Origin: Calditrichaceae bacterium
GTDB lineage: Bacteria > Calditrichota > Calditrichia > Calditrichales > JBFXGD01
Direction: 5' to 3'
Length of the DNA: 64,000 bases
Assembly: GCA_050173015.1 (NCBI GenBank)
Contig: JBFXLE010000008.1
Span: 96,584-160,583 of the forward strand
The first letter of the stretch is position 1. Every line of letters begins with the position of its first letter. Shown in pieces: positions 40,704 to 58,417 of the stretch. A program made the position numbers and the translations under genes. The notes under the pieces were generated by a model. That model saw only the letters and a program-made list of their open reading frames with translations, had not been told where the DNA came from and did no database searches.

Positions 40704-40769
40704 CCTGTCTGCCTTTCACTCAGGAAGTCTGAAAAATCTCTCTCACCATTTAAACGACCTCATTCCGGA

Positions 40770-43001: not shown

Positions 43002-43086
43002 TTATTTTCTCCTGATGCTGAGAGTTCTATGTTAAACTTTAAATCATACGTGAGAGACCGAGAATGAAGCCTTTAAAGCACAAATT

Positions 43087-44769: not shown

Positions 44770-45147
44770 TTATTCGGGTGGATGATAAATATCCTTCTGT
44801 AAAACAGGGATACTCAAAAAATCATTTTTTGGTTTTAACAGGGTTTGCTTATCGGGGATTAAAAGCAAATTTTCAAAAAACATTAATTTAGCGGTTAGAT
44901 CCATAACCACCGGAACAATCGTACTCATGCGTGAAGCACAATGCGTAAACCCGATCAGGCCGGCCTCATCATCACAGGTGCATTTTGTCATATCACCATT
45001 GCATCCGCAATTGCAATAATGGACCAAATCCGGAAGCGCTTCCGCCTGCCGGAAGGCTTCCTGAATGACAGGTACTCCGGCCATATTAAAAATGACCAGG
45101 AAGCTCATAAATAACGCCAGGATTTTTTTCCGATTGACCCGATTCAT
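44770..45147 (-). CDS. Cys-rich exported leader-type protein with C-terminal HPP (CruR/DUF2946-like architecture)
   Basis: N-terminal hydrophobic segment, HYCNCGC...KCTC...HC, ends DIYHPPE. Confidence 0.65.
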   Translation of the reverse strand: MNRVNRKKILALFMSFLVIFNMAGVPVIQEAFRQAEALPDLVHYCNCGCNGDMTKCTCDDEAGLIGFTHCASRMSTIVPVVMDLTAKLMFFENLLLIPDKQTLLKPKNDFLSIPVLQKDIYHPPE

Positions 45148-45165: not shown

Positions 45166-45999
45166 TTACAAATCTTTGTTTGAAAATATTTTTATCGCCA
45201 GCGCCAGCGGCAGACCGCCCCATGCCAGCAATGCCGTAAATAATACCAGAAATCCGCTTCCCGTTCCGCCTACAAACTTTAATACCGCCCCTGCCGTAGG
45301 CCCGAACATGATCTTTCCGCCCAGAACAAACAAGGTTCCTACCCTTACAAGATCAACCGGATTTCCAAAAAGCATTCCAAAAAGCACATTACGGAGTACG
45401 TTTCCCTCAAAACTGGAAGCCAGCCACATGACAAGCAAATCATAAAGAATAACAAATATGAACCAGACAAATAAACCGATACTGAGGGCTTGTGTTCTTT
45501 TCATAGTGATCACACTTATCAGCGCGGAAATACTTAAAAATATCAACCCTAAAACAAGACTCAGCAAAACAAAAGCGATATACGCCGTCAGATCACTCGC
45601 GCCCGCTCTCCATCCGATGACCATACCGGCGGCGCCGAAACCGATACCTGTGGAAATCACTATAGCGAGAAACAAACCAAAATACTTCCCCAGCAGATTT
45701 TCTGATCGCAATACCGGCTGTGATATCTGAAGCTGCAGTGCTCCCGGTTCATCCGACGCAAAGCTCATTGCTCCCAGAATTAGAGCTACCAACGGGACAA
45801 GGTAAAGATTCAAATTTAATAAACTCGCTGTTGTGCGGATAAAATCCTGGAAACCGGTAAATCCTGATATTTTTGTGCCCGCGAAACTGATTGTAAGAGC
45901 GATTACAGCAAATACCACCGAAAAAATCATCACCCAACGGCTACGGATTACCGAGAGTAATTCCTGCATGGCAATTGAATTAATTATTTTAATATTCAT
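45166..45999 (-). CDS. nosY: NosY ABC permease
   Basis: ASLLNL.LYLVPLVAL, SQPV.R...LGKY, LFVWF.FV.LYD, GNPVDLVR; nos context. Confidence 0.88.
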   Translation of the reverse strand: MNIKIINSIAMQELLSVIRSRWVMIFSVVFAVIALTISFAGTKISGFTGFQDFIRTTASLLNLNLYLVPLVALILGAMSFASDEPGALQLQISQPVLRSENLLGKYFGLFLAIVISTGIGFGAAGMVIGWRAGASDLTAYIAFVLLSLVLGLIFLSISALISVITMKRTQALSIGLFVWFIFVILYDLLVMWLASSFEGNVLRNVLFGMLFGNPVDLVRVGTLFVLGGKIMFGPTAGAVLKFVGGTGSGFLVLFTALLAWGGLPLALAIKIFSNKDL

Positions 46000-46759
46000 A
46001 GGATTCCTTTGTCTCTTCTGCCAGATGCGCTCCCGTTACAATGAGCCTGCCAATTATTTTATCTGAATTATTCTCAAAAATATCAAAGCGGTCGCCGGGC
46101 TTATCAACCTTTAATCTGTACATTCTTGATTCCCCGTATGGAATTTCCATTTGCAATTCAGGATAATTCAGGATACTGATTGACGCATCCTTTTCTGTCC
46201 GGTTCGATATACGAATCTGTACTATCTGATTCAGAGTTGCTTCAAATACTTCCGGAGTGAGCTTATTCTGGATATAATCCGCCCGGACATATAAATCCGG
46301 TTCCTGATATTCGTCCCACATTTTATTCCATGAGAGAATTTCGCCCTCGCGGATTGTATTTTTAAATTTCAGCGCTGCCGCCGAATCGCTAAAAGTCGTA
46401 ACATTAAAGTCCATGACAGGAGTGCGATAATCACCCCTGACAAAGAGAGCGCTGTCCGCGGCAATCCAGTTTTTTGTGTCAAAGGCAATCACATAAAATT
46501 TGAGTATATTATTTTTCTCCCTCACGTGGCCGCCGGAAAAATACTGTACCATGCAGATGGGATGATCAAATTTTATGATCTCTCCATTTATTTTGATTAA
46601 TTCAGCGGCATACTCAAAATCAAGAATCTCCATCCGGCAGGTTATACAAATATCACCCTTTTCAACCGGTACGGGCTCACCCGAAATGCTCCCGCATCCC
46701 GTAATCAATGAAAAGATGGCACTTAATATGGCCTGACCGATCCATTTTTGTATGCTCAT
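45989..46759 (-). CDS. nosL: NosL lipoprotein with extra C-terminal beta-rich domain
   Basis: Lipobox ITGC, DICITCRMEI, KFDHPICM, TPVM; about 100-aa C-terminal extension. Confidence 0.82.
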   Translation of the reverse strand: MSIQKWIGQAILSAIFSLITGCGSISGEPVPVEKGDICITCRMEILDFEYAAELIKINGEIIKFDHPICMVQYFSGGHVREKNNILKFYVIAFDTKNWIAADSALFVRGDYRTPVMDFNVTTFSDSAAALKFKNTIREGEILSWNKMWDEYQEPDLYVRADYIQNKLTPEVFEATLNQIVQIRISNRTEKDASISILNYPELQMEIPYGESRMYRLKVDKPGDRFDIFENNSDKIIGRLIVTGAHLAEETKESYEY

Positions 46760-47664
46760 TCCTGAATATTCTCCGAAAATATCCTGTTGTAAACATATTC
46801 CAGCGTCGGGTCTTCCGTCCAGAAACGCTCTATTTTTGCCCCGGCTTTACGCAGAATTTCCAGCAAATTAGGACGTTTGTCGGCTTCAACAACTACCCGG
46901 AAAATGTCACCTTCGATTTCAACTTCCCTCGCTCCGTTCGCAAGAAGCAGATCCTTGTATTCCGGTTGTGTATTAAGAAATACAATAATCATTCTGGCAT
47001 CGGCGTCAGATGTTCTCTTTAATTCAAGCGCGTCTTTTACGGCAATCAGCCGGCCGTCTTTCAGAAGAGCGATTCGGTCCGCCAGTTGTTCCGCTTCGCT
47101 CAACAGATGTGTGGCCATGACAATAGTGCATTTTCTGGCTTTAATCTCCCTCACGAGTTCTTTAAACTTGGCCACGCCCTGCAGATCAAGGTTTATGGTT
47201 GGCTCATCAAGGATGTAGACGTTAGCCGGAGACAATTTCAATAATCCTAGACCAAGCCTCTGAACCATTCCCCCTGAAAACACCCCGACAAATTTATCCG
47301 TTGATCCGTTCAGATTGATATCTTTTAAAATCTCATTAATATGAGTCTGCGGTTGTTGTCTTATTTTCGAGTGATACAAAAGAATCTCTCTGGCCGTCAA
47401 ATTATCCGGAAATGACAGCCTCTGGGGCAAAAACATCATATTTTTTTTAACTTCCCTTGGATATTTCCAGACATCGGTGTCATTGACTAAAATCTGTCCG
47501 GTTGTGGGCTTGATAAGCCCAATGATCATTTTTAATAATGTCGATTTTCCGCTGCCGTTCGGACCAAGCAGAGCAAAGGTCTCTCCGGGTTTTATGTCAA
47601 GATCGACGTTATTAACAGCAAGCGTATCTTTGAATTTTTTTGATATATTTCTGATCTTTATCAT
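46756..47664 (-). CDS. nosF: NosF ABC ATPase
   Basis: GPNGSGKST, FSGGMVQR, LDEPT; lies between nosD and nosL/nosY. Confidence 0.85.
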   Translation of the reverse strand: MIKIRNISKKFKDTLAVNNVDLDIKPGETFALLGPNGSGKSTLLKMIIGLIKPTTGQILVNDTDVWKYPREVKKNMMFLPQRLSFPDNLTAREILLYHSKIRQQPQTHINEILKDINLNGSTDKFVGVFSGGMVQRLGLGLLKLSPANVYILDEPTINLDLQGVAKFKELVREIKARKCTIVMATHLLSEAEQLADRIALLKDGRLIAVKDALELKRTSDADARMIIVFLNTQPEYKDLLLANGAREVEIEGDIFRVVVEADKRPNLLEILRKAGAKIERFWTEDPTLEYVYNRIFSENIQE

Positions 47665-47680: not shown

Positions 47681-49102
47681 TTAAATTTCTGATTTGAACC
47701 AACTGTTTACCCGATATATCATGAGACCGGAGAAGCCGAATAATAATGACGAAAAAAGAAGCATCGGGAAAATCATTTTTTTCTCATTCGGCGGCATTAA
47801 ACGGGACAAAAGCCACTCCGGCATCTGGACCGGCTTCATTAGCGGATAATGGTCTGTATGTTTAACCTGTTCAATAAACGGCAAGATGCGTTCTGAAAAT
47901 ACTAACGCCTGCGCGGCAGGACTATAAACATACAAACGGAAAAAGGGATACTCACCCTGAAGATGGTCAAAAATCCCCTGTACACGGTGCGGAATATCAC
48001 TTATCCCGTCCGCGTCAAGATCGTAGCCTTTAAAATTACTCCAGTAGTTACCATGATGATCTTTTTGCCATGTAACGGTTACTTCGCCTCCGACAGAAAC
48101 CAGATTACTCAGATTATCTACAAAGGTGTTATCATAAAAATTAGTACCTTCTGAACTAAGATAGTATTTAATCGCCACACCGCTTTGTGCAATGAGGTTG
48201 TTGCGGACGACATTTAAATGAGACATGTCCAGGAACATACCGGTAGTGTTATTTACAATAAGATTATACTCGGAAAGTGAATGCCGGACATCTTTATAGA
48301 GCACTCCATATGCCCGGTAACCCACATTATGAGCAAAGATGTTGTACCTGAATACGAGACCCCGCTCGGAGTACATCAGTGCGACACCCGCCACATTTTC
48401 AGTAAAATAGTTATGCTCAAACACATCATAATCCGAATACATAAAATGCAGGCCATAACGCACATTTTTAATAAGACAATGGGTTACAAGGTTGCTGTCG
48501 GCAAAATCGAAATAAATACCATCGCGCGCGCCGTAAACATATAATGAATCCAGGTGATTATTGCGCGAATCATGCAGGTGAATACCGTTTCCTCTGTCTT
48601 CTTCGGGTTCACTATCACGCCCGTGAATAGTGGTTTTTTTTATGATATTATAATTCGCGCTAAAAAGATAGATTCCGAACAAATTGTCTTCGAACAGACA
48701 ATTTTCAATAACATTATGATGCGCCTTGTAAATCTTCAATCCCGCATTATCATGAATCCGCTTATGCCCGCCTCCCCTGATAATGAAACCTTTTATCGTA
48801 CAGGAATCAGCAAACAACTTTACTGCGTCCCCTGAATCCGTCGGCGCGGATATAATAGCCCCCTGTTCCCCAAGCAAAATCAGCTTTTTATCTATCTTAA
48901 TATTCCCGAAGTATGTTCCCGCTTTCACTCTAATAGTATCGCCCGGCTGGGCGGCTTCAATCGCTGAATTTATTGAATTGAACTTTTGATCACTTTTTGA
49001 AACAAATATGGTGCCGGCCGTACTGGCGGGGGGAAACGCCAGGACGATGGCGAAACTGAGGACAACTTCTTTCCATAGACTCATTTTCATTACCGACACC
49101 AT
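47681..49102 (-). CDS. nosD: Nitrous oxide reductase maturation protein NosD
   Basis: Beta-helix repeats, RGNGIHL, RDGIY, RYGLHFMYS, GNYWS.F.GYDLDADGISDIP. Confidence 0.93.
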   Translation of the reverse strand: MVSVMKMSLWKEVVLSFAIVLAFPPASTAGTIFVSKSDQKFNSINSAIEAAQPGDTIRVKAGTYFGNIKIDKKLILLGEQGAIISAPTDSGDAVKLFADSCTIKGFIIRGGGHKRIHDNAGLKIYKAHHNVIENCLFEDNLFGIYLFSANYNIIKKTTIHGRDSEPEEDRGNGIHLHDSRNNHLDSLYVYGARDGIYFDFADSNLVTHCLIKNVRYGLHFMYSDYDVFEHNYFTENVAGVALMYSERGLVFRYNIFAHNVGYRAYGVLYKDVRHSLSEYNLIVNNTTGMFLDMSHLNVVRNNLIAQSGVAIKYYLSSEGTNFYDNTFVDNLSNLVSVGGEVTVTWQKDHHGNYWSNFKGYDLDADGISDIPHRVQGIFDHLQGEYPFFRLYVYSPAAQALVFSERILPFIEQVKHTDHYPLMKPVQMPEWLLSRLMPPNEKKMIFPMLLFSSLLFGFSGLMIYRVNSWFKSEI

Positions 49103-49172: not shown

Positions 49173-49601
49173 TTATTTCCGCCAGGTTTCTTTCTCTCCG
49201 AGATTCTGCTTCTGGGCGATTTGCCCTCTCACCGCGGCAACCCCTGCCTTTATCATCCATTGAAGCGCCTGATCAAGATCCTCCGTCATCTGATAAGTAC
49301 AAACCTTCTTTTCATCCATATCTTTCTTCACTTTTTCCATAAAGGCCAGCGCTTTTTTCTCCCACATTTTAGCATCTTTAATCTCTTCAAATACGAGAGT
49401 ATTCATTTTTCTGGACTCAACATCCTTTATGACAGAGTCAACGATGTTTTGTGTCGCTGTGCATTCGTTATATTTTGACTCACATTCCTTCATATCGAAT
49501 TTTTTTACCTTGTACTGTGCCTGAACCGGCGCGACAAGAAAGATGCCAAGAAATAACATCAGCACCATCCAGGCGGGATTATATAATTTAAAACCTTTCA
49601 T
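49173..49601 (-). CDS. Hypothetical secreted helical protein in the nos core
   Basis: Signal peptide ending VQA-Q; 3 Cys and 7 Met in the mature part; starts 3 bp after the nosB stop. Confidence 0.7.
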   Translation of the reverse strand: MKGFKLYNPAWMVLMLFLGIFLVAPVQAQYKVKKFDMKECESKYNECTATQNIVDSVIKDVESRKMNTLVFEEIKDAKMWEKKALAFMEKVKKDMDEKKVCTYQMTEDLDQALQWMIKAGVAAVRGQIAQKQNLGEKETWRK

Positions 49602-49604: not shown

Positions 49605-50249
49605 TTACTCCTCTGATATTTTTTGTGTTCTGGAAAAAAATATGGCCGCAACAAGCAGCGCAGCCGCAACACCCAAAAAAACGGCGCCTGACCGCGGCAT
49701 ATTTGTCACTCCAAAATTTGCAATCTGCCTGAAGCCAATGAGTGGCGGTGTAAAACCTTCAATTTTCATGGCAGCTTGCGGGGATAAATCATGCCCGTAA
49801 TTGTAAAGCCATATATAAAAACGATAAAAACTGAAGCCCGCAAGGTAACTCAGGAGCACCACCAGATCTATGAGTCCCGACATGCGTCCCATGATGAGCA
49901 GCCTTAGTGCCAGCAGTGAAAGAATACCGATGGCCAATGGCAGCCAGGTCAACTCCGGAAAATCACTTTCCTGAATATGTTTCATACCGATGTAGTGATT
50001 CAGAACATTTATTTCTTTCAAATGTCTGCCATGATCTCCACTCTCCAGTTTATGTGAGTAAATATCCAAAACGAGTCCATCAGGATAGAAATTCGAATTG
50101 AGGGTCATTCTATAGAGTGGAAAGGCGTATGTCATCAACAGGCTGACCACGGCGATTAATATCAAAACACGTGATTTGACGGTCAGCGGAAGATCGGTGA
50201 AATGATTCAGCTTTTCCAGAAATTTATCGATGCGATTTGAATTTTTCAT
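49605..50249 (-). CDS. nosB: Clade II nos membrane protein NosB
   Basis: YPDGL, EINVLNHYIGMK, FPEL, WLYNYGHDL, FTPPLIG..QIANF; directly after nosZ. Start moved to MKNSN. Confidence 0.85.
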   Translation of the reverse strand: MKNSNRIDKFLEKLNHFTDLPLTVKSRVLILIAVVSLLMTYAFPLYRMTLNSNFYPDGLVLDIYSHKLESGDHGRHLKEINVLNHYIGMKHIQESDFPELTWLPLAIGILSLLALRLLIMGRMSGLIDLVVLLSYLAGFSFYRFYIWLYNYGHDLSPQAAMKIEGFTPPLIGFRQIANFGVTNMPRSGAVFLGVAAALLVAAIFFSRTQKISEE

Positions 50250-50308
50250 TAGTAACTCCTTAAAAATGCCTTTACCGGGCTCCTTCTGCAAATGATCAAC
50301 ATCCTGAA

Positions 50309-52273
50309 TTAATTTATAAGTTTCGCGTGTTTGATTTTATTTGCCGGAGTGATTTCAAGTTTTTCAGCACCTTTCGGCTTCACCAATAGATAACCCTGCA
50401 TTTCCTGATGCAGCGCCGAACAGAAATTCGTGCAGTAGAACGGCCAGACACCCGGTTTATTGAGTTTTACAGTAAGAGTTTTGGTTTCTCCGGGAAACAA
50501 ATCGGTGTTAACATCATATTCACATATGGCGAATCCATGAATTTCATCCCGCATTTCTTCAATATTTGTCAAATGAATAGTGAGATTATCCCCTTCCATA
50601 CATTCGATTTTTGTCGGCGCTAATGTACTCCTGACAACAGTCATCCATACTTCCACGTTGTTTCCATTTCTCACAACTTTGGCATCTTTCGCATCCCAAA
50701 TAGCATTCGGATGTTCATTGAAAATAGCATTAGACGGAGCATCTGATCCTTTTTTGTAGAACATTTCTACGACATTGGAAGCAATCAGGTCCGCTTTGAG
50801 AAAAACCGCATAATGAGGTTCCGGCTCCGGGAATGCCTGGAATATCATTTTCATTTTCTCACCGGATATATCTATTAACTGACCGCTTTCCGGCATATCC
50901 GGTCCGACCGGTAAATGTGTGCCTTTGGACAATTTATTCAGCGATATTAACCAGTTTCCATGGGGATGCATAGTTTCTCCGTGAGCAACCGCCAAATGCC
51001 CCACATTGTAAGCGACAGGAATCTTATCGACCAGTTCCCATTTATCATTCAGACCCACACTCCATTTCGCGATCGCGCTTTCAACAAAAAGACTGGTGTA
51101 GGCATAACCTTTTTCGTCAAACTGAGTGTGAAGCGGACCAAGCCCTACAGTTACTTCCGCTTCTCTGACAGCATTATAGCGTAACACAGGAATGCCGTCT
51201 TCATCGCCTTCGAAGTCTTTACTGTTAATTGCCTGCTGAATTTTTTCAAAACTAAAAATTGACACTGTTGGCGAAAGTTTGCCATTACCAACGATATATT
51301 TGCCGTCAGGAGTCACATCGACCCCGTGAGGACTCTTCGGACATGGAACAAGGTAAACTAAACCGGGATTCTTGTTCGGGTCAAGCACAGGAACTCCGCC
51401 CAGCATAATTGTTTTTCCGGAATCTTTTATATTTTTTTCTGCAAGTTTCCAGTTGACGACCGCGATATAATCCATTTCTTTCTGGGAAGCGGTAACCTCC
51501 AGAACACCCGTCGCTCTCTCTGAATTATAGCAAGTCCAGAATGCCCATCCGTCACTTGGACCTTTACCGGCATCACCAAGGTCAAAATTGAACGGCGGCA
51601 TCAAAATTTCCCAGCCGTAACTAAAATGACCGTCAACAGGATCAATTTTTATTCCCGCCACAATTCCTTTATATGATTTCGCGTAATCTTCAACGTCTTC
51701 ATATTTTCCCTTTGGTAGCGGTATAGAAAATCGGCTGGCCATTAGTGAGTACTCAGTATTCGGAGTCACATAAGCGGACCCATGATCACCCATCACATTG
51801 GGAACAGGCCCGAATACTTCAACTGTCCTGAAGGTACGAAGATCGATTCTTGCCGTCCTGTTATTTGCGTTGTCATTCACAAATAACCATCTTCCGTCAT
51901 AATCACCATTCGTTTCACTGGGCGCGGGATGATGCACGTCGCCCCATCTGAAATCACCCATCAGAGCTTCACTCTCAACGTCAAATCCGTACCCCGTGGC
52001 CGCGTAATCCTGAAACACAGGAATCGTGCGAATATGACGCATTGACGGAACACCATAAACATACACACAACCATTGTGACCGCCGGACATGAACACATAG
52101 TAATCATCAAAATCACCCGGAGCGACATAAGTCCTCAGTGCATTTTCTGCGACTTCGCTCTTGGCAGTGGTCCCCTGTTTTTCTCCGCCGCCACATCCAC
52201 CGCCCATAAACATCATAAAGATGCCCGCGATTATAAAAGTGGTCAGCATCGGAACTAAAATACTGCGTTTCAT
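50309..52273 (-). CDS. nosZ: Clade II (Sec-dependent) nitrous oxide reductase
   Basis: CuZ His motifs DVHH, GDHG, SPHG, GPLH, VGH, EPH. CuA: EIHG...CTNFCSALHQEM. No twin-Arg; lipobox-like GGGC. Confidence 0.97.
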   Translation of the reverse strand: MKRSILVPMLTTFIIAGIFMMFMGGGCGGGEKQGTTAKSEVAENALRTYVAPGDFDDYYVFMSGGHNGCVYVYGVPSMRHIRTIPVFQDYAATGYGFDVESEALMGDFRWGDVHHPAPSETNGDYDGRWLFVNDNANNRTARIDLRTFRTVEVFGPVPNVMGDHGSAYVTPNTEYSLMASRFSIPLPKGKYEDVEDYAKSYKGIVAGIKIDPVDGHFSYGWEILMPPFNFDLGDAGKGPSDGWAFWTCYNSERATGVLEVTASQKEMDYIAVVNWKLAEKNIKDSGKTIMLGGVPVLDPNKNPGLVYLVPCPKSPHGVDVTPDGKYIVGNGKLSPTVSIFSFEKIQQAINSKDFEGDEDGIPVLRYNAVREAEVTVGLGPLHTQFDEKGYAYTSLFVESAIAKWSVGLNDKWELVDKIPVAYNVGHLAVAHGETMHPHGNWLISLNKLSKGTHLPVGPDMPESGQLIDISGEKMKMIFQAFPEPEPHYAVFLKADLIASNVVEMFYKKGSDAPSNAIFNEHPNAIWDAKDAKVVRNGNNVEVWMTVVRSTLAPTKIECMEGDNLTIHLTNIEEMRDEIHGFAICEYDVNTDLFPGETKTLTVKLNKPGVWPFYCTNFCSALHQEMQGYLLVKPKGAEKLEITPANKIKHAKLIN

Positions 52274-52358
52274 GCTTTAATCCTCCTTACGAGATAAGTA
52301 AACCCTTAACCAGATTGACACCAATCAGGCCATTATTTATTGTATTAATCCCCGGTTT

Positions 52359-53591
52359 TCAATTTAAATTTAGAGCTTTCATCCGCTCGGCTTCCTCCGC
52401 TCTCGCTAACTTATAAGCATTATTAAGCAGCGTTATAACTTCCTGTTTTTCTTTGTCCGTCAGTACAATCTGGGTTGAAAGCACCACTTCCATCGTGGCT
52501 TTGGGAGTGACCATAAACTGCTCAAGTGTCAGATTAAATCGTTTTTGCACATCTTCCGCCGCCTTACTCAACTCAGGCCCAATATTGGTAGGTGATTCTA
52601 CTTCATACACCTTAACGCTATGACAAATAAAACACCCTTTTTCGACAAAGAATTTGCCGCCGCCTTCCATCATTCTTCTTTCCTTATCTATTTCTTCCTT
52701 TGTTTTCTCCTCGGTGAGATTAATTCCCGGCAAATACTCGACAGGCACATTCATCTTCTGCCAGCTCATCACAAGCATTGCCAGAGACTGACCATCTTTT
52801 GTCGAAAAATTAAATTGCGGCATGATTGATGTAGGTACGAGCGCTGTAGGCGAGCGCAAATGCTGAACATGCCAGTTAAAAGAAGATTTATAGGATGTTG
52901 TATAATATGTAAAATCAAGCATTTCAGGATTTTTATCACCCTCATACATCAAATCAGGACCGATTACTCCACCCTGCCCGTTGATCCTGTGGCAGGCGCT
53001 GCAGCCTTTAGTCTTCATCAATTTTTTTGCATGGTTGATGTATTCCATCCCCTCCGTATATCTCTCGTAACGGTGACAGGCGTTACAGTTCACCTCCATG
53101 AGCGCCCCTTTCGAACGCACGAGATAAATATCTTCTATCTCCCTGCCTAAAACCGGAAATTCCCAGTGAGGTACCGCGCCGTATGCGGTCGCAAATTCCA
53201 GCGAATACCCCTGCCCGCCATGACAAACAGTACAGCCGTACTTTTCGATCGGGTGCTTTTGCAATATTTTCGACGGGTGACTCCTATGCGGATTTGGACT
53301 GTATTCCATACCTTTCCATGTTAACCCCAGATGACAGGATGGACATCGGTCAACCCGGTTAAGATCCGCGATATAGATCTGCTTGATGCCTTTCTCAATC
53401 TTTGAAGCGGTCTCCTTGCCGGATTTTTCAAGAACGATATCATAAAAATCATCCTGGTACGCGCTCCAGTCAGCTGAATATGACTGAATAATTATAAATC
53501 CTGTAATAACCAGGAGAAACAATGACAGGGAAAAAAGCAGATATGGTTCATTCTTTATCCCGTCAAAACTAAATTTTTTAAATATATTCAT
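52359..53591 (-). CDS. Membrane-anchored pentaheme cytochrome c of the Rieske/cytochrome b complex
   Basis: Five CxxCH: CPSCH, CTVCH, CNACH, CSACH, CFICH; N-terminal TM. Start moved to MNIFKK. Confidence 0.88.
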   Translation of the reverse strand: MNIFKKFSFDGIKNEPYLLFSLSLFLLVITGFIIIQSYSADWSAYQDDFYDIVLEKSGKETASKIEKGIKQIYIADLNRVDRCPSCHLGLTWKGMEYSPNPHRSHPSKILQKHPIEKYGCTVCHGGQGYSLEFATAYGAVPHWEFPVLGREIEDIYLVRSKGALMEVNCNACHRYERYTEGMEYINHAKKLMKTKGCSACHRINGQGGVIGPDLMYEGDKNPEMLDFTYYTTSYKSSFNWHVQHLRSPTALVPTSIMPQFNFSTKDGQSLAMLVMSWQKMNVPVEYLPGINLTEEKTKEEIDKERRMMEGGGKFFVEKGCFICHSVKVYEVESPTNIGPELSKAAEDVQKRFNLTLEQFMVTPKATMEVVLSTQIVLTDKEKQEVITLLNNAYKLARAEEAERMKALNLN

Positions 53592-53608
53592 TATATATAC
53601 TCCGCCTA

Positions 53609-54991
53609 TCAGAATCGAACCGGTATTGAAGGCCACGCTTCCCATGGCCAGTAAAAATCATAAAATGTGCCGCGCATAAACGTGCCGACAATAACAAGTA
53701 CCAAAATGAGTACGACGATGATGATAAATATCAAATTTTGTTTATTTCTGCCCTTATGAAACCACACCCCTATTGCTTGTGGGCCGCTTTTATCGATAAA
53801 CGGCCAGACGGCAAGTAAAACAAGAAGTACTCCCGGTACGATAATCCCCCCGATAAGCGCGCCGTTCAGCATGTAGCCGCCGATTTTGAAAGATGTATCC
53901 GCGACCAGTTCCTGCAGCCACAAAAAATACCATGGCGCCTTCGCGACGTCAGGGGTGACCCCCGGATTGGCCGGCGCTTCGAGAGGCGCCTTAAAAAGTA
54001 TTGATAAAACCGTGGTTACCAGAAATGTCAGAATAAAAACGGTGAGGATTCTTCTTGGTAAAAATGGACTGGTATTAAGAGTATCCTCCTCAGATACCAT
54101 TGATGTGATGACGCTCGGTCTTTGCCCTCTGGCGATTCCCAACAGTGAATATGTTTTTGATGAGGTGACTTCAATGGTTTGCTCTTTTCGCTCAAGGGCA
54201 AGATGATCAACGCAGGCCAGCCCGCCGTCTTTACGGATTCGCCACATATGATATGAGATTAGTATGAGGAGAATTATCGGCAGAAACGCCACATGCAGCA
54301 CATAAAAACGAATCAGAGTGTTTTGCTCGATCTGATTGCCGCCAAGCAGAAGATAACTCATAGAGTCGCCGATCAGCGGCGCGGCCTTCGCGATATTGGT
54401 TCCCACAGTGATCGCCCAGTAGGCAAGCTGATCCCATGGCAAAAGGTATCCTGTAAAAGAAAGAAACATCGTGAGCAAAAGTAAAAGTATGCCCGACAGC
54501 CAGTTCACCGCTCGGTTCGCTCCGACGACTTCCGCGCTGCGGTAAGCGCCGGTTAAAAACACTCTTACCATATGAAAAAACACAACCGCGACCATCAGAT
54601 GGGCCGCCATTCTGTGGGTGTTGCGAAGAAGCCATCCAAATGAAATCACAAATTCTATATCCTTGACACTCCAGTAAGCGCGTTCGATGGATGGAACATA
54701 GTAGAACATCAGGACAACGCCGGTAATAGAAAGGATTAAGAATAATGACGCTGAAATCGTACCCAGCCAGAGCGAATACCCCCAGGAGAGGCTTTTTTTT
54801 GTGATTTTTGCCGGAAACCAGTGTAGCAGGAAATTCCGTATGATCGATTCTCCCGCTTCTTTCGCGCTGCGTGGAAGCCATGTCCAAATGCTTCTTTCCC
54901 AAACATTCAGCCAGTACTCCCGCGATATAATCTTTCCGTTTCCGTTACTTTTTACTTCAGGCGTGTCGGTTACTTTTTCTTGAAGATCCAT
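53609..54991 (-). CDS. Cytochrome b of a Rieske/cytochrome b complex (b6 and subunit IV parts in one chain)
   Basis: Heme His in RNTHRMAAHLM...FFHM and YVLHV...SYHM; TGYLLPWDQLAYWA; Qo motif variant AKAPWYF. Confidence 0.92.
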   Translation of the reverse strand: MDLQEKVTDTPEVKSNGNGKIISREYWLNVWERSIWTWLPRSAKEAGESIIRNFLLHWFPAKITKKSLSWGYSLWLGTISASLFLILSITGVVLMFYYVPSIERAYWSVKDIEFVISFGWLLRNTHRMAAHLMVAVVFFHMVRVFLTGAYRSAEVVGANRAVNWLSGILLLLLTMFLSFTGYLLPWDQLAYWAITVGTNIAKAAPLIGDSMSYLLLGGNQIEQNTLIRFYVLHVAFLPIILLILISYHMWRIRKDGGLACVDHLALERKEQTIEVTSSKTYSLLGIARGQRPSVITSMVSEEDTLNTSPFLPRRILTVFILTFLVTTVLSILFKAPLEAPANPGVTPDVAKAPWYFLWLQELVADTSFKIGGYMLNGALIGGIIVPGVLLVLLAVWPFIDKSGPQAIGVWFHKGRNKQNLIFIIIVVLILVLVIVGTFMRGTFYDFYWPWEAWPSIPVRF

Positions 54992-55007
54992 ATTGATACT
55001 CCAAAAC

Positions 55008-55523
55008 TTAGGAAATATTAAATTCCGTTCCTTTTTTAACTTCGATTGAGGTATCTATTACCAGCTGCTGATCGTCGGGGGCGATATCGATCTTATGCCA
55101 GGGGAGAGGGGTAGGCGCCGGTCCTTCATAATTAGTACCGTCCTCATAAAACTTTGAGCCGTGACAGGGGCAATGATATTCATGGTTAATCTCAACATCT
55201 TTCCCGTCGATTTTCACTGTTTTTGGTTTTGCCAGTTGAACATGCTTCACCGTACAGCCCAGGTGAGTACATACTGCGGTGTGGGCGTGCATTTTTTTGT
55301 GATTTTTGGCGATGAATTCCTTCTGCTCACTAAAAAATTTTACACCGTCCGGAAGATCGGCCGCCATACCTACTTTAAATTTTTGCAGCGGCTCGTACAG
55401 AACATTTGGAACAAAAGAGCGGACCCAAGCGAAAAGATTACCCGCAAAGGCGACAACAATTGTCCCCGCGCCAAGTTTGTTCAAAAATGAACGTCTGGTT
55501 TCTTTCTTTGTTGATTCTGTCAT
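55008..55523 (-). CDS. Rieske [2Fe-2S] protein (Tat-exported)
   Basis: TRRSFL, CTHLGC, CPCHGSKF, GPAPTPL. Confidence 0.93.
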   Translation of the reverse strand: MTESTKKETRRSFLNKLGAGTIVVAFAGNLFAWVRSFVPNVLYEPLQKFKVGMAADLPDGVKFFSEQKEFIAKNHKKMHAHTAVCTHLGCTVKHVQLAKPKTVKIDGKDVEINHEYHCPCHGSKFYEDGTNYEGPAPTPLPWHKIDIAPDDQQLVIDTSIEVKKGTEFNIS

Positions 55524-55538
55524 TTAACTCACCTCTCA

Positions 55539-57476
55539 TCAAACTAATTGTTCATCAAATGAAAATTTTTCCATCGTCATGGCATCCGTCGGACAAATCT
55601 TCGCGCACAATCCGCAACGGATGCACAAATCTGTATCCTTGATCATTACCGAGAGTGGTGTATCATTATTAAGATCAAGACTTTTTGTTATTTTTTCTAT
55701 TTCTTCCTGATTGATAATCATGTCATCAAAGGGTATGATTTTAAGACAGTACTCAGGGCATATATCAACACATCCGCCGCAGAGAATGCATTTCTCCGAA
55801 TCGTAAATTGTCTGAATGTGACACTTCAGACACCTTTCACCCTGCCCGACAGCTTCCTCAATGGAATACCCTGTTTCGACTTCAGTGATCCCTGTTCTGC
55901 GGTCAGTAGAAACAGTGGGAGGAATTTCCCGGTCACACTGTTCATAACCCGCGGGCATATCGTAGTCTCTGGTTTGGATTAGTTCGATTTTGGCGGTAAT
56001 CCTGACTTCCGGTTGAGATATTTTTTGAGACGGTTCAGAAAGATATTTATGAATGGAACCTGCCGCGAGTTTGCCGTTTGCGGCCGCTTCGATCAGTATT
56101 CTTGGACCAAAGGCCACGTCTCCGCCGCAAAAAACACCCGGCGCGGTGGTTTCCAGTGTGTCAGGATTGATTTTTATTGTTCCCTGTGGTAGCACTTCTA
56201 CTTTGTCAGAAGAACTCAAAAACGAAAGATCCGGCACTTGTCCGATTGCTAAAATGACTGTATCAGCTTCTATCACTTTCTCGGTGTCCGGTCTAAGCAC
56301 AGGATTAAACTTCCCGTTCTCATCGAACAACTTTTCCACTTCAAGAAATTCAACACCGCTCAGTTTTCCGTCTTTTCCGGCAAATTTCTTTGGTCCCACG
56401 GATGGTAAAAACCTGATCCCTTCGATAGAAGCTTCGTGCAATTCATCCTTCCCCTGAACAGTTTTCGCCGCAGGCATTTCTTCAAAAGATTCAAGGGACG
56501 CTACCAGAACTTCCGCGCCTCCACGCCTGGCGCTTCGCGCTGCGTCAATAGCGACATGCATTTCTCCGGCTTCAGCGACTCGATCCACTTCATCCATTGG
56601 TTTATAGAACTCGCGTATCGCTGTTCTCGCGGCGTCAAGAGCAACGCTCCCGCCTCCGATGACAATGACTTTTTTACCGAGATCTATCTTATATCCGCTG
56701 TTGACGTTCAATAAGTAATCAACCGCCTTAACAACGCCGTCAAGTTGAATTCCGGGCAAATTAAGATCACGCCCTTTCATGGCCCCGGTGCTGAGAAAGA
56801 TGGATTTATACCCCATTTTTTTTAATTCTTTTAAACCAAAACCCTTGTGGAGGCTTGCGTTATATTTAATCTCGACTCCAAGACTTTTAATAACCGCCAC
56901 CTCTCTGTCGATCACACCGCGGGTAAGACGGTATTCCGGTATTCCCAGACGCATCATGCCACCGGGAATCGCCGCCGCTTCAAAGATGGTCACCTTGTAT
57001 CCCAGAAGCGCGAGATCATGCGCGCATGCTAATCCCGCCGGTCCGGCGCCGATCACAGCGACTTTCACACCATCGTTTCTGCCGTTGTTTTTAAGAAGAT
57101 TGGGCAAATGCCAGGCAAACTTACTACCAACATCGGGTTTTCCGGCTAATAAAGAATTAACCGTATCAGGTTTTGACGATTCCGGACCAAATTGCTCAGT
57201 TACAAACCGTTTTAATCCCCTGATAGTGACCGCCTCATCGAGTTTGCCTCTTCTGCACGCGTCTTCGCACGGAGCGGCGCATACTCTACCGCAAATGGAG
57301 GCTATCGGGTTCGGTGACTTGGCCACAAGGTAGGCATCTTCAAATTTGTTTTCTGCGATTAACTGAACATATTTCCCGGAATCGGTATGAACGGGGCAGG
57401 CCTGAAAACAAGGGACATCACTTCTATACCATTCAAAATCACGAAGATTAGTGATATATTTCACTTTGACTCCCAC
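55539..57476 (-). CDS. GltD/NfnB-like FAD/NAD(P)H oxidoreductase with C-terminal 2[4Fe-4S] ferredoxin domain
   Basis: PCFQACP, ICGRVCAAPCEDAC, GAGPAGL, GIPEYRL, GGGSVALD, GERCLKC, CILCGGCVDICP, CIRCGLCAKICP. Confidence 0.88.
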   Translation of the reverse strand: MGVKVKYITNLRDFEWYRSDVPCFQACPVHTDSGKYVQLIAENKFEDAYLVAKSPNPIASICGRVCAAPCEDACRRGKLDEAVTIRGLKRFVTEQFGPESSKPDTVNSLLAGKPDVGSKFAWHLPNLLKNNGRNDGVKVAVIGAGPAGLACAHDLALLGYKVTIFEAAAIPGGMMRLGIPEYRLTRGVIDREVAVIKSLGVEIKYNASLHKGFGLKELKKMGYKSIFLSTGAMKGRDLNLPGIQLDGVVKAVDYLLNVNSGYKIDLGKKVIVIGGGSVALDAARTAIREFYKPMDEVDRVAEAGEMHVAIDAARSARRGGAEVLVASLESFEEMPAAKTVQGKDELHEASIEGIRFLPSVGPKKFAGKDGKLSGVEFLEVEKLFDENGKFNPVLRPDTEKVIEADTVILAIGQVPDLSFLSSSDKVEVLPQGTIKINPDTLETTAPGVFCGGDVAFGPRILIEAAANGKLAAGSIHKYLSEPSQKISQPEVRITAKIELIQTRDYDMPAGYEQCDREIPPTVSTDRRTGITEVETGYSIEEAVGQGERCLKCHIQTIYDSEKCILCGGCVDICPEYCLKIIPFDDMIINQEEIEKITKSLDLNNDTPLSVMIKDTDLCIRCGLCAKICPTDAMTMEKFSFDEQLV

Positions 57477-57509: not shown

Positions 57510-57926
57510 TTAATGATTAAATACTCTTAGGAAGTTCTTTAAATTGTCACATAACGAAAAATTTCTGTACACATCGCAACTATGACAATCTCCGTTTTTA
57601 CAACTTATTTTTGCTTCAAAACATGGTTGTTTCTTTGAAATGTAGGCTGGACAAGCCCTCTCTTCGTTGCAATTATTGATGTCCCAGCATGGAATGAGCG
57701 CGAGCAGCCGCCTGATACCTTCGATGTTCATCTTTTCATTCTTGATCAAATGTCTGATCTTTTTCAGCCACTCAAGATCATGCTCATCATATATACGCCG
57801 GTTCGTCCCTGTCCGGTGCGGAATTACGATACCTGCATCCTCATACATTCTTAGAGTGTTGGGAGATATATCAAGGAGACGGGCAATATCACCGATGGAA
57901 TACCATTTTTTTATCAATGTTTCCAT
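57510..57926 (-). CDS. MerR-family regulator with 8-Cys C-terminal domain
   Basis: YSIGDIARLLDISPNTLRMYE..G...P.R..TNRRIY HTH; PCW...C...CPAY...PCF...C...C..C...C. Confidence 0.88.
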   Translation of the reverse strand: METLIKKWYSIGDIARLLDISPNTLRMYEDAGIVIPHRTGTNRRIYDEHDLEWLKKIRHLIKNEKMNIEGIRRLLALIPCWDINNCNEERACPAYISKKQPCFEAKISCKNGDCHSCDVYRNFSLCDNLKNFLRVFNH

Positions 57927-58386: not shown

Positions 58387-58417
58387 TAAAATAGCCGTTC
58401 AATGAACGGCTATTTTA
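58387..58417 (-). terminator. Intrinsic terminator after the acyl-CoA dehydrogenase gene
   Basis: TAAAATAGCCGTTC-AAT-GAACGGCTATTTTA perfect inverted repeat a few bp after the stop. Confidence 0.8.

What the first reader, a model, noticed from the sequence alone, without database searches (positions are those of the whole stretch)
50309..57476. NAD(P)H flavo-FeS subunit, Rieske/cytochrome b and pentaheme cytochrome c wired directly to clade II NosZ
Seen: a GltD/NfnB-like protein with an extra 2[4Fe-4S] domain lies 15 bp upstream of Rieske, cytochrome b, pentaheme cytochrome c and nosZ. There is no gltB, nfnA, nosR or nosG. The cytochrome b has APWY instead of PEWY and no heme-ci Cys motif. The Rieske has GSKF (Phe, not Tyr), consistent with a lower-potential, menaquinol-type centre. 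Established: Rieske/cytb genes occur in some clade II nos clusters, and Rieske/cytb complexes with NAD(P)-oxidoreductase subunits are described from anammox bacteria. Inference: a dedicated N2O-respiratory complex in which quinol oxidation or bifurcation links cytoplasmic NAD(P)(H)/ferredoxin to N2O reduction.
Basis: partly seen in the sequence, partly recalled or inferred. Interest (0 to 1): 0.85.

Follow-up and report, generated by a model that had tools for sequence, protein, structure and literature searches.

The report
NAD-linked Rieske/cytochrome b module feeding NosZ
A conserved five-gene cassette places an NAD(P)H-type iron-sulfur flavoprotein next to a Rieske/cytochrome b complex, a five-heme cytochrome c and a clade II nitrous oxide reductase, much like the unusual complexes of anammox bacteria, so how many environmental bacteria gain energy from N2O may need rethinking.

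Summary
On the minus strand lie a flavoprotein (Fer4_20 + FAD/NAD(P) domains + extra 2x[4Fe-4S]), a Rieske protein, a fused cytochrome b6/subunit IV, a five-heme cytochrome c and a Sec-type NosZ, with gaps of 15-85 bp. These are followed by nosB-like, nosD, F, L and Y genes.

It is not a one-off. I examined the best 80 of at least 698 related loci. The flavoprotein is followed by Rieske in 79 of 80 and by NosZ in 58 of 58 loci that are long enough. The order is the same in 57 of 57, across Bacteroidota, Ignavibacteria, Acidobacteriota, Gemmatimonadota and Anaeromyxobacter.

The Rieske protein's closest solved relatives are the two anammox Rieske proteins from NAD(P)-reductase-bearing complexes. 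Cytochrome b keeps an invariant N-terminal His and an RxRK motif on the cytoplasmic side. A docking prediction gave only weak support: 0.37 against a best control of 0.01.

Half of the orthologues have Tyr, and anammox Kustd1480, which has Ser/Phe, measures +335 mV.

Published nos figures draw this gene only as "Fe-S". Whether electrons flow toward NAD+ or from NAD(P)H is unresolved. I rate it a new variant of a known kind.

The parts
58387..58417 (-). Strong terminator-like hairpin (14 pairs) ending the upstream acyl-CoA-dehydrogenase-like gene. It is followed by about 460 bp of AT-rich spacer and marks the likely upstream limit of the transcription unit.
57510..57926 (-). MerR-family regulator with a Cys-rich C-terminal half, 33-45 bp upstream of the flavoprotein. 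It is not conserved at this position elsewhere: only weak hits, about 3 kb upstream, in 2 of 80 loci.
55539..57476 (-). Cytoplasmic FAD/NAD(P)H-type flavoprotein of the NfnB/GltD kind. It has an N-terminal Fer4_20 domain and an extra C-terminal 2x[4Fe-4S] ferredoxin domain, with 17 invariant Cys, enough for four clusters. The probable start is at 57464.
55008..55523 (-). Rieske [2Fe-2S] protein with a twin-arginine signal (CTHLGC / CPCHGSKF).
53609..54991 (-). Cytochrome b: a b6-like four-helix part fused to a subunit-IV-like part. It has heme ligands H126/H140/H233/H248, an invariant n-side H57 (LHWFP) and HMWR(V/I)RKDGG, APWYF in place of PEWY, and no heme-ci Cys.
52359..53645 (-). Membrane-anchored five-heme cytochrome c (five CXXCH). 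The start may be the Met 18 codons further in.
50309..52273 (-). Clade II (Sec-type, lipobox-like signal) nitrous oxide reductase NosZ.
49605..50291 (-). NosB-like membrane protein, named from its position directly downstream of nosZ. It matches no Pfam or NCBIfam family and is conserved in 52 of 52 loci long enough.
   Evidence: PMC11096178 passages
49173..49601 (-). Small secreted protein of unknown family. It is not conserved: one weak hit in 80 loci.
47681..49102 (-). NosD
46756..47664 (-). NosF (ABC ATPase)
45989..46759 (-). NosL-domain protein
45166..45999 (-). NosY (ABC-2 permease)
44770..45147 (-). Small Cys-rich secreted protein with no family match.
44165..44686 (-). Thioredoxin-fold (AhpC/TSA, Redoxin) protein.
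43616..44101 (-). NosL

Best explanation
The five genes encode one dedicated menaquinol:N2O electron-transport complex.

A b6f-like Rieske/cytochrome b dimer oxidises menaquinol at the outer (Qo) site. One electron goes Rieske -> membrane-anchored five-heme cytochrome c -> NosZ -> N2O.

The flavoprotein is a cytoplasmic subunit bound to the inner face of cytochrome b. Its chain of four [4Fe-4S] clusters wires the low-potential heme b chain to FAD and a pyridine nucleotide. An extra heme held by the invariant His57 pair at the dimer axis may lie on this path.

Favoured direction, as proposed for the anammox complexes: the second electron of quinol oxidation is pushed uphill to NAD+ instead of back to a Qi-site quinone, paid for by the very favourable N2O branch. 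The NADH made can re-enter complex I, so more protons are moved per N2O.

Shown: the gene content, motifs, conservation and the Rieske relationship. Inferred: the physical attachment, the extra heme, the preference for NAD(H) over NADP(H), and the direction of flow.
For: Gene order and conservation:
- The gaps are 15-17 bp between the first four genes and 85 bp before nosZ, with no convincing terminator in any gap.
- I examined the best 80 of at least 698 confirmed loci from GTDB species genomes. Rieske follows the flavoprotein in 79 of 80. My script counted 75, but 4 of the 5 misses are filter artefacts visible.
- Among loci with enough downstream sequence, cytochrome b is present in 73 of 74, the five-heme c in 63 of 63, NosZ in 58 of 58, and the order is collinear in 57 of 57.
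- Pairwise distances of the five proteins correlate at r = 0.87-0.95 over 44 loci. Shared ancestry alone also raises this figure.

The flavoprotein:
- It is NfnB/GltD-like (9bov_A 264 bits, 5jca_L 223, 4ylf_B 220, GltD 152; Foldseek top hits NfnABC and StnABC).
- 17 Cys are invariant in 57 sequences, enough for four clusters.
- There is no NfnA or GltB partner in the window.

Links to anammox:
- The best solved relatives of the Rieske are Kuste4569 and Kustd1480. Both have Em > +300 mV with menaquinone (PMC12954380, abstract and passages).
- In cytochrome b, H57, R251, R253 and K254 are invariant in 68 of 68 sequences on the n-side. This parallels the His43/Arg247 and His62/Arg266-Lys267 that hold the modelled extra heme b in the anammox complexes (PMC12954380 section 3.3).

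Unusual quinone-site features:
- APWYF replaces PEWY in 68 of 68, and none has a heme-ci Cys.

Nucleotide preference:
- The YRR(T/S) of the five best PDB relatives aligns with SLES, and S-L-E is kept in nearly all of 71 sequences. An acidic residue there fits NAD(H). The role of YRR in binding the 2'-phosphate is recalled, not tested.

Docking:
- The cytochrome b dimer plus the flavoprotein C-terminal 150 residues gave ipSAE 0.37 (runs 0.41, 0.37, 0.37) against a best control of 0.01.
- That mark was reached by 58 of 80 solved complexes and 2 of 110 mismatched pairs. At 0.60 or under, only 7 of those 80 solved complexes and both passing mismatches reached it, so the pass is weak.
- The runs agree in at least 92% of contacts and the partner's pLDDT is at least 68.
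Against: - No experiment here shows that the proteins bind, and the only docking result is a weak pass on a job unlike the tool's calibration.
- No cytochrome b-flavoprotein fusion was seen among 30 long cytochrome b relatives, which is itself weak evidence.
- In one of 80 loci (L034) the flavoprotein stands without Rieske/cytochrome b.
- The anammox complexes have heme cN and a split cytochrome b. This one has neither.
- The hosts are heterotrophs with plenty of NADH, so the need for quinol-driven NAD+ reduction is not obvious.
- An electron crossing to the n-side works against the membrane potential, which leaves little margin for reaching -320 mV.
- The anammox mechanism itself is still a proposal.
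- Only the top 80 loci were examined. The remaining 618 or more were not.
Confidence: 0.42

Rival explanations
1. Same complex, opposite direction. The flavoprotein oxidises NAD(P)H and feeds electrons through its four clusters into the n-side hemes or Qi site of cytochrome b, re-reducing menaquinone there. The cassette would then be a self-contained NAD(P)H:N2O oxidoreductase with an internal quinone loop.
For: - The architecture and conservation evidence is the same as for the best explanation.
- In solved relatives, GltD/NfnB-type modules act as NAD(P)H input modules feeding Fe-S wires (NfnABC, StnABC, DPD, GltD).
- The hosts are organoheterotrophs. The window also carries an NADH-dependent [FeFe] hydrogenase, so reduced pyridine nucleotide is a main currency in this organism.
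- This direction is thermodynamically downhill and needs no unusual potentials.
Against: - It would bypass energy-coupled NADH dehydrogenases and waste about 250 mV. This is the argument made against the same idea for anammox (PMC12954380 discussion).
- The closest characterised Rieske relatives have unusually high potentials, which fits the uphill branch instead.
- The loss of the PEWY Glu and the invariant n-side His suggest a modified low-potential path rather than an ordinary Qi site.
Confidence: 0.28
2. Flavin-based bifurcation. As in NfnB, the FAD splits the NAD(P)H electron pair. One electron goes through the C-terminal clusters to cytochrome b, quinone and N2O (the high-potential branch). 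The other goes through the N-terminal clusters to ferredoxin (the low-potential branch). The cytochrome b complex takes the place of the missing NfnA.
For: - The best sequence and fold relatives are bifurcating Nfn-type modules.
- NfnA is absent from the window.
- The protein has two separate cluster-bearing domains.
- The organism has ferredoxin-linked enzymes such as a group A6 [FeFe] hydrogenase.
Against: - Residues 525-553 align to the N-terminus of NfnB. C549 and C552 therefore probably complete the N-terminal clusters, and the four clusters more likely form one linear wire, as in DPD and the anammox models, than two branches.
- The NADPH-type YRR motif is lost.
- No ferredoxin gene is conserved in the cassette.
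Confidence: 0.1
3. The flavoprotein is a soluble, co-regulated enzyme that does not dock on cytochrome b. For example, it could be a NAD(P)H:ferredoxin-type oxidoreductase that supplies reductant for NosZ maturation or activation, taking the role that NosR plays in clade I. The Rieske/cytochrome b complex would then run an ordinary Q cycle.
For: - The docking score is only a weak pass.
- One locus, L034, keeps the flavoprotein without Rieske/cytochrome b, next to a NapH-like polyferredoxin.
- NosR and NosGH are absent from the cassette, so some substitute for their role may be needed.
- No fusion with cytochrome b was found.
Against: - The flavoprotein sits directly before the Rieske gene in 79 of 80 loci across many phyla.
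- Cytochrome b carries invariant cytoplasmic-face residues with no role in a standard Q cycle.
- A cytoplasmic enzyme cannot reach periplasmic NosZ without a membrane wire.
- The anammox counterparts co-migrate with their complexes, according to PMC12954380, which cites a complexome study.
Confidence: 0.15

Closest known systems
Anammox Rieske/cytochrome b complexes with an NAD(P) oxidoreductase subunit (Kuenenia stuttgartiensis Kuste4569-4574 and Kustd1480-1485)
   Same: - One cluster holds a Rieske protein, a b6-like cytochrome b, a multiheme cytochrome c in place of cytochrome f/c1, and a cytoplasmic FAD flavoprotein with four Fe-S clusters.
- The organisms use menaquinone.
- Among solved structures, the Rieske proteins are the closest relatives of the window's Rieske.
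- A conserved N-terminal His and basic residues after helix D of cytochrome b sit where the anammox models place an extra heme b.
- A subgroup of the nos-linked cytochromes b (L014, L025, L027, L030, L036, L060) carries a 70-residue insert giving two more helices, like the five-helix subunit IV of anammox.
   Different: - The terminal partner is NosZ and N2O, not an HAO-like octaheme protein and nitrite.
- Cytochrome b and subunit IV are fused.
- There is no heme cN Cys.
- The cytochrome c has five hemes, not six or eight.
- The hosts are heterotrophs from many phyla, and several are culturable.
- Orthology of the flavoprotein and cytochrome b was not tested.
Clade II nos clusters drawn with 'Fe-S, Rieske (S/Rs), cy-b, cy-c' genes before nosZ (Anaeromyxobacter-type; figure legends in PMC11096178 and PMC13122619)
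   Same: This is very probably the same cassette. L075 is Anaeromyxobacter soli and has the same gene order.
   Different: - Those papers label the 640-residue gene only as an iron-sulfur protein. I saw only the legends and passages, not the figures.
- I found no text naming it as an FAD/NAD(P)H flavoprotein or comparing it with anammox.
- The I. album genome paper lists only ACIII as complex III.
NfnB / GltD / DPD-type NAD(P)H flavoproteins, and the GltD-like modules of NfnABC and StnABC
   Same: - It has the Fer4_20 two-cluster domain plus FAD and NAD(P) Rossmann domains.
- These are its best sequence and fold matches.
- The permuted position of the RCLxC segment is shared with 9bov_A.
- A C-terminal 2x[4Fe-4S] domain extends the wire, as in DPD.
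   Different: - There is no NfnA, GltB, FMN or HydB-like partner.
- The YRR motif is replaced by SLES.
- There is a 30-residue insert in the NAD(P) domain (residues 291-319, low pLDDT).
- The neighbours are membrane respiratory genes.
Wolinella-type clade II electron module NosGH/NosC1C2 and clade I NosR
   Same: It does the same job in outline: a nos-cluster-encoded route from the quinone pool or cytoplasm to NosZ.
   Different: The proteins are unrelated. None of NosG, NosH, NosC1/C2 or NosR is in the cassette. Only a NapH/MauN-like gene lies about 4 kb away.
ExtP/ExtQ b-type cytochromes of the selenite/tellurite reduction operon (NCBIfam NF040969 and NF040970)
   Same: These are the best NCBIfam matches to the two halves of cytochrome b, and the ExtP match includes the N-terminal His region (ExtP 237 bits over residues 51-258; ExtQ 66 bits over 305-449).
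   Different: - Both scores are below the family cutoffs of 290 and 150.
- ExtP and ExtQ are separate proteins.
- I did not examine that operon.

Membership tests
Clade II (Sec-dependent) NosZ | Scores above the curated cutoff of the Sec-dependent NosZ model and better than on the TAT-type model | tested here: met
   TIGR04246 scores 823.4 bits (cutoff 625). TIGR04244, the TAT type, scores 452.8, below its cutoff.
Clade II (Sec-dependent) NosZ | Signal peptide without a twin-arginine motif | tested here: met
   The N-terminus MKRSILV...GGGCGG has no RR. 49 of 53 orthologues lack an RR-type motif by a simple pattern.
Clade II (Sec-dependent) NosZ | nosB membrane-protein gene directly downstream of nosZ | tested here: inconclusive
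   A multi-helix membrane protein lies 17 bp downstream and is conserved in 52 of 52 loci. No NosB model exists in Pfam or NCBIfam to confirm its identity.
Rieske/cytochrome b complex, b6f-like | Rieske boxes CxHxGC and CxCHGS | tested here: met
   CTHLGC and CPCHGSKF. These are kept in 75 of 75, with one CACHGS variant.
Rieske/cytochrome b complex, b6f-like | Four heme-ligand His on helices B and D, with the b6-type 14/15 spacing | tested here: met
   H126/H140 and H233/H248 are invariant in 57 sequences. Cytochrome b6 is the best PDB match, E 1.4e-39.
Rieske/cytochrome b complex, b6f-like | PEWY motif at the Qo site | tested here: not met
   APWYF in 68 of 68.
Rieske/cytochrome b complex, b6f-like | Cys for covalent heme ci/cN before helix A | tested here: not met
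   No Cys at residues 60-80 in 68 of 68.
Rieske/cytochrome b complex, b6f-like | Cytochrome b6 and subunit IV as separate proteins | tested here: not met
   A single 460-residue protein matches both Cytochrome_B and Cytochrom_B_C.
Anammox-type Rieske/cytochrome b complex with NAD(P) oxidoreductase subunit | NAD(P) oxidoreductase flavoprotein encoded in the same cluster as Rieske and cytochrome b | tested here: met
   It lies 15 bp upstream of Rieske, and the arrangement is conserved in 79 of 80 loci.
Anammox-type Rieske/cytochrome b complex with NAD(P) oxidoreductase subunit | Flavoprotein carries FAD and a chain of four Fe-S clusters | tested here: met
   It has Pyr_redox_2 and Fer4_20 plus two CxxCxxCxxxCP motifs, with 17 invariant Cys. 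This rests on motifs only.
Anammox-type Rieske/cytochrome b complex with NAD(P) oxidoreductase subunit | Multiheme cytochrome c in place of cytochrome f/c1 | tested here: met
   Five CXXCH in 63 of 63. The anammox ones have six or eight.
Anammox-type Rieske/cytochrome b complex with NAD(P) oxidoreductase subunit | Rieske protein related to Kuste4569/Kustd1480 | tested here: met
   9rk4 (E 2.7e-16) and 9rk3 (E 3.2e-14) are the two best of 35 PDB matches. The next is Chlorobaculum at 1e-12.
Anammox-type Rieske/cytochrome b complex with NAD(P) oxidoreductase subunit | N-terminal His pair and basic residues of cytochrome b that hold an extra heme b at the dimer axis (so far only a model, even in anammox) | tested here: inconclusive
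   H57 and R251/R253/K254 are invariant. Equivalence to His43/Arg247 and His62/Arg266-Lys267 was not tested by alignment.
Anammox-type Rieske/cytochrome b complex with NAD(P) oxidoreductase subunit | Flavoprotein and cytochrome b orthologous to Kuste4570/Kustd1483 and Kuste4571/Kustd1481 | not tested
   The anammox sequences could not be reached. The searches returned only nos-type proteins or fragments.
Anammox-type Rieske/cytochrome b complex with NAD(P) oxidoreductase subunit | Subunits co-migrate as one membrane complex | not testable with these tools
   There is only a docking prediction, which gave weak support.
NfnB / GltD small-subunit family | Fer4_20 domain plus FAD and NAD(P) Rossmann domains | tested here: met
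   Pfam, PDB sequence search and Foldseek (TM to target 0.75-0.78 for NfnI-L, NfnB and GltD).
NfnB / GltD small-subunit family | Partner subunit NfnA or GltB encoded alongside | tested here: not met
   None appears in the 56 window ORFs scanned or next to the gene in the 80 loci (which searched only for the window's own proteins).
NfnB / GltD small-subunit family | YRR(T/S) after the second Rossmann strand (its NADPH 2'-phosphate contact is recalled, not from a call) | tested here: not met
   It aligns with SLES, and S-L-E is kept in nearly all of 71.
NosR or NosGH electron modules | NosR (FMN_bind plus polyferredoxin membrane protein) or NosG/NosH genes inside the nos cluster | tested here: not met
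   These are absent from 43.6-57.9 kb. A NapH/MauN-like gene lies outside the cluster at 38726-39814.

The most novel reading that the evidence does not exclude
The commonest environmental clade II N2O reducers (Bacteroidota, Acidobacteriota, Gemmatimonadota, Ignavibacteria, Anaeromyxobacter) run a quinol-based electron bifurcation. For each menaquinol oxidised, one electron reduces N2O and the other is lifted through the b hemes, an extra interfacial heme and four Fe-S clusters to NAD+. The NADH then passes through complex I again, an extended Q cycle that raises the protons moved per N2O. This would give culturable models for the unproven anammox mechanism. It could also help explain the higher growth yields reported for clade II organisms, a report I recall and did not check here.
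Probability: 0.3. Interest if true: 0.9.

Novelty: new variant of a known kind. Interest (0 to 1): 0.7.

Why it matters
- NosZ is the only known biological sink for N2O, and clade II organisms dominate that sink in soils and wastewater.
- If their dedicated electron-transfer complex is coupled to NAD(H), the energy yield and electron budget of N2O respiration in these organisms differ from the textbook cytochrome bc/Q-cycle picture. Growth-yield and competitiveness models would change.
- The proposed NAD(P)H-generating Rieske/cytochrome b mechanism has so far rested on anammox bacteria that are hard to grow. It would become testable in cultured bacteria such as Anaeromyxobacter, Ignavibacterium album, Gemmatimonas or Luteitalea pratensis.
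- It appears to have been labelled only as "Fe-S" in nos cluster figures.

Tried and rejected
Reaching anammox or other split cytochrome b relatives:
- I searched with residues 36-258 of cytochrome b so that the fused nos-type proteins would fall outside the length range. The 120 listed hits were fragments of nos-type proteins from short contigs, many named "partial", so no anammox comparison was possible.
- The full flavoprotein search listed 120 hits, all of 624-668 residues and 54-99% identity. Again none was from anammox.

Rosetta-stone fusion:
- Among 30 cytochrome b relatives longer than 805 residues, none carried a flavoprotein domain. The fusions seen were with Rieske (1) and with c-type cytochromes, all at 43% identity or less. 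The tool calls finding none weak evidence.

Family scans that gave nothing specific:
- NCBIfam on the flavoprotein C-terminal 150 residues returned only generic ferredoxin-type hits, and the cytochrome b N-terminal 59 residues returned none.
- The ESM Atlas returned only same-architecture "FAD-dependent oxidoreductase" clusters.

Literature:
- Searches found no paper that describes the nos-linked flavoprotein as an NAD(P)H enzyme.
- Most hits only cite Hein et al. 2017.
- Sanford et al. 2012 (PNAS) is not held.
- The reviews by Hein & Simon 2019 and Torres et al. 2016 were not seen, so prior description there cannot be excluded.
- Figures and PDF supplements were not visible.

Other points:
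- The promoter and terminator scan gave 43 promoter-like and 19 terminator-like sites, against 33.8 +/- 5.4 and 14.2 +/- 3.5 in shuffles. That is too noisy to define the operon beyond the strong hairpin at 58417-58387.
- I considered and rejected the idea that Phe in GSKF marks a low-potential Rieske.
- I also rejected MerR as a conserved part of the cassette.

Full report
**What is in the window**

Between 57.9 and 43.6 kb, all on the minus strand, lies one tight gene string. In order:
- a MerR-type regulator (57926-57510);
- a 645-residue flavoprotein (57476-55539);
- a Rieske protein (55523-55008);
- a 460-residue cytochrome b (54991-53609);
- a cytochrome c (53645-52359);
- NosZ (52273-50309);
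- a four-helix membrane protein in the nosB position (50291-49605);
- a small secreted protein;
- NosD, NosF, a NosL-domain protein and NosY;
- a small Cys-rich protein, a thioredoxin-fold protein, and NosL.

The gaps are 15 bp (flavoprotein-Rieske), 16 bp (Rieske-cytochrome b), an overlap or 17 bp (cytochrome b-c), 85 bp (c-NosZ) and 17 bp (NosZ-nosB-like).

A strong hairpin terminator at 58417-58387 closes the preceding gene. About 460 bp of AT-rich spacer then precede MerR. The consensus scans are too noisy to say more about transcription: 19 terminator-like sites against 14.2 +/- 3.5 in shuffles.

**The five core proteins**

*Flavoprotein.*
- It has Fer4_20, Pyr_redox_2 and a C-terminal double CxxCxxCxxxCP ferredoxin domain.
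- It probably starts at the second GTG, 57464.
- Its best solved relatives are Nfn-type modules: 9bov_A 264 bits, 9n5u_A 253, 5jca_L 223 and 4ylf_B 220. GltD scores 152 and DPD 132.
- A model built on 57 orthologues (mean pLDDT 76, pTM 0.79) finds the same structures by fold.
- 17 Cys are invariant in 57 sequences, enough for four [4Fe-4S] clusters.
- Residues 525-553 align with the N-terminus of NfnB. The protein is therefore circularly permuted, and C549/C552 probably complete the N-terminal clusters. This favours one linear four-cluster wire.
- The YRR(T/S) of the five best PDB relatives is replaced by SLES, and S-L-E is kept in nearly all of 71 orthologues. I read this as a lean toward NAD(H). 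That reading is an inference from recalled structural knowledge.

*Rieske.* It has a twin-arginine signal, CTHLGC and CPCHGSKF.

*Cytochrome b.*
- It is b6-like: 1vf5_A scores E 1.4e-39, against about 1e-27 for bc1 cytochromes b.
- It is fused to a subunit-IV-like part.
- It has APWY instead of PEWY and no Cys before helix A.

*Cytochrome c.* It has five CXXCH motifs and a membrane anchor.

*NosZ.* It is the Sec-type clade II enzyme: TIGR04246 scores 823 bits against a cutoff of 625.

**Is the arrangement conserved?**

Of these, 698 encode a relative, and the best 80 were kept with up to 10 kb of flank.

The 80 loci come from Bacteroidota, Ignavibacteria/Chlorobiota, Acidobacteriota (Pyrinomonadaceae, Vicinamibacteria, Thermoanaerobaculia), Gemmatimonadota, Zixibacteria, KSB1, Kryptonia, an Acidimicrobiia MAG and Anaeromyxobacter soli.

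I searched their ORFs with the window's own proteins. Among loci with enough downstream sequence:

| Gene after the flavoprotein | Present |
|---|---|
| Rieske | 79 of 80 |
| Cytochrome b | 73 of 74 |
| Five-heme cytochrome c | 63 of 63 |
| NosZ | 58 of 58 |
| nosB-like | 52 of 52 |
| NosD | 50 of 50 |

- For Rieske my script counted 75 of 80. Four of the five misses (L066, L067, L075, L079) are artefacts of a start-coordinate filter on long stop-to-stop frames, and their Rieske ORFs are listed.
- All 57 loci that hold the four downstream genes are collinear.
- The one true exception is L034. There the flavoprotein follows an Rrf2 regulator, a NapH-like polyferredoxin and a methyltransferase, and is followed by an unrelated gene.
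- Pairwise distances of the five proteins over 44 shared loci correlate at r = 0.87-0.95. This is as expected for a cassette inherited as a unit, though shared ancestry alone also raises this figure.
- Only the top 80 loci were examined.

**Conserved features that bear on mechanism**

In cytochrome b:
- the four heme ligands are invariant: H126/H140 at spacing 14 and H233/H248 at spacing 15, the b6 type;
- APWYF is found in 68 of 68 sequences;
- H57, in an LHWFP-like motif before helix A, is found in 68 of 68;
- HMWR(V/I)RKDGG, directly after helix D, is found in 68 of 68;
- no heme-ci Cys is found in any of the 68.

By homology with b6, the N-terminal segment and the end of helix D lie on the cytoplasmic side.

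Six loci (L014, L025, L027, L030, L036, L060) carry a roughly 70-residue hydrophobic insert in the subunit-IV part.

The cytochrome c has exactly five CXXCH in 63 of 63 sequences.

In the Rieske protein the Ser of CPCHGS is invariant. The following aromatic residue is Phe in 38 and Tyr in 37 of 75.

**Comparison with anammox**

Hauser et al. 2025 (PMC12954380; I read the abstract, passages and section 3.3) describe two Kuenenia complexes. Each has a Rieske protein, a b6-like cytochrome b, a five-helix subunit IV, a hexa- or octaheme c, and a cytoplasmic NAD(P) oxidoreductase with FAD and four Fe-S clusters.

From that paper:
- The proposal, originally by Kartal et al., is that quinol bifurcation sends one electron uphill to NAD(P)+.
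- Both Rieske domains measured above +300 mV.
- AlphaFold3 models place an extra heme b at the dimer axis. It is ligated by His43 (Kuste4571) or His62 (Kustd1481), with Arg247 or Arg266/Lys267 nearby.

How the window compares:
- The window's Rieske finds exactly these two proteins as its best solved relatives: 9rk4 at E 2.7e-16 and 9rk3 at 3.2e-14. Chlorobaculum follows at 1e-12, and b6f Rieske proteins score around 1e-9.
- The invariant H57 and RxRK of the nos-linked cytochrome b sit in comparable places. I could not align them with the anammox sequences, so this is a lead, not a test.
- Kustd1480 has the same Ser/Phe pair as the window's GSKF and still measures +335 mV.

**Does the flavoprotein bind cytochrome b?**

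I sent a cytochrome b dimer (residues 36-460, alignment A4) with the flavoprotein C-terminal 150 residues (alignment A3) as the partner.

- The verdict was weak support: ipSAE 0.37 (runs 0.41, 0.37, 0.37), with a best control of 0.01.
- That mark was reached by 58 of 80 solved complexes and 2 of 110 mismatched pairs. At 0.60 or under, only 7 of those 80 solved complexes and both passing mismatches reached it.
- The runs agree in at least 92% of contacts, and the partner's pLDDT is at least 68.
- The tool notes that this job is unlike its calibration.
- A search for natural cytochrome b-flavoprotein fusions found none among 30 long relatives.

**Most likely mechanism**

I take the cassette to be one complex. 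Menaquinol is oxidised at Qo, and one electron runs Rieske -> five-heme c -> NosZ. The flavoprotein on the cytoplasmic face links the heme b chain to NAD(H).

I favour the anammox-type direction (quinol-driven NAD+ reduction; overall confidence 0.42) for four reasons:
- the Rieske kinship with the high-potential anammox proteins;
- the altered Qo and n-side features;
- the large driving force of N2O;
- the loss of the NADPH motif.

The rivals are:
- the reverse direction, with NAD(P)H as donor (0.28);
- an unattached, co-regulated flavoprotein (0.15);
- flavin-based bifurcation to ferredoxin (0.10).

None is excluded by sequence alone.

**What is already known**

- Figure legends of recent nos papers list "Fe-S", "Rieske (S/Rs)", "cy-b" and "cy-c" genes in clade II clusters (PMC11096178 and PMC13122619; I saw passages only). 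The gene order is therefore in print, with the flavoprotein apparently drawn as an Fe-S protein.
- The Ignavibacterium album genome paper lists only ACIII as complex III and describes nosZ plus nosLDFY (PMC3362086, passages). Yet an I. album MAG (L048) carries the full cassette.
- In eight searches I found no text identifying the gene as an FAD/NAD(P)H flavoprotein or linking it to the anammox complexes.
- Subscription reviews and Sanford et al. 2012 could not be read, and figures and PDF supplements were not visible. Prior mention cannot be excluded.

**Verdict**

Membership in the anammox-type class holds for gene content, cofactor motifs and Rieske kinship. It fails for heme cN and the split cytochrome b, and it is untested for orthology of the flavoprotein and for physical association. 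I rate it a new variant of a known kind, with interest 0.7.

Noticed in passing
window 5740-13286: A three-gene NADH-dependent [FeFe] hydrogenase: NuoE-like, NuoF-like and HydA group A6 (880 bits against a cutoff of 765). With it are two radical-SAM maturase-like genes and HydF. This points to an anaerobic or facultative fermenter.
   Followed up: partly
window 35782-43572 (minus strand): A second cluster lies directly beyond the nos genes. It holds two further NosL-domain proteins, a TonB-dependent receptor, a 326-residue secreted/anchored protein, a NapH/MauN-family membrane polyferredoxin (below its cutoff), a double-cubane-cluster reductase (350.2 bits against a cutoff of 350) and its activase. 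It may serve copper uptake or a second redox function.
   Followed up: partly
window 55539-57476, residues 525-553 and 291-319: The flavoprotein is circularly permuted relative to NfnB/GltD, because the RCLxC-bearing N-terminal segment of NfnB sits after the FAD domain. It also has a roughly 30-residue low-confidence insert that duplicates a DAAR(T/S)A motif in the NAD(P) domain.
   Followed up: partly
window 57510-57926: A MerR-family regulator whose C-terminal half is rich in Cys (a possible metal or redox sensor) lies directly upstream of the flavoprotein. It is not conserved at this place in the 80 related loci.
   Followed up: partly
L034:7454-14306: This is the only locus of 80 where the flavoprotein is not followed by Rieske/cytochrome b. 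It sits after an Rrf2 regulator, a NapH-like polyferredoxin membrane protein and a methyltransferase, and before a large glycosidase-like gene.
   Followed up: partly
L014, L025, L027, L030, L036, L060 (cytochrome b genes, coordinates): A subgroup of the nos-linked cytochromes b has a roughly 70-residue hydrophobic insert between the last two helices and lacks an 11-residue segment after the APWY loop. This would give two extra helices, reminiscent of the five-helix subunit IV of anammox.
   Followed up: no
L012:3-3718 and L023:3-3482: A second, distantly related cytochrome b and a large multiheme cytochrome c lie about 9 kb upstream of the cassette in two loci.
   Followed up: no
window 44770-45147 and 49173-49601: Two small secreted proteins inside the nos cluster have no family match. 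One is Cys-rich (CNCGCNGDMTKCTC). Neither is conserved in the related loci.
   Followed up: no
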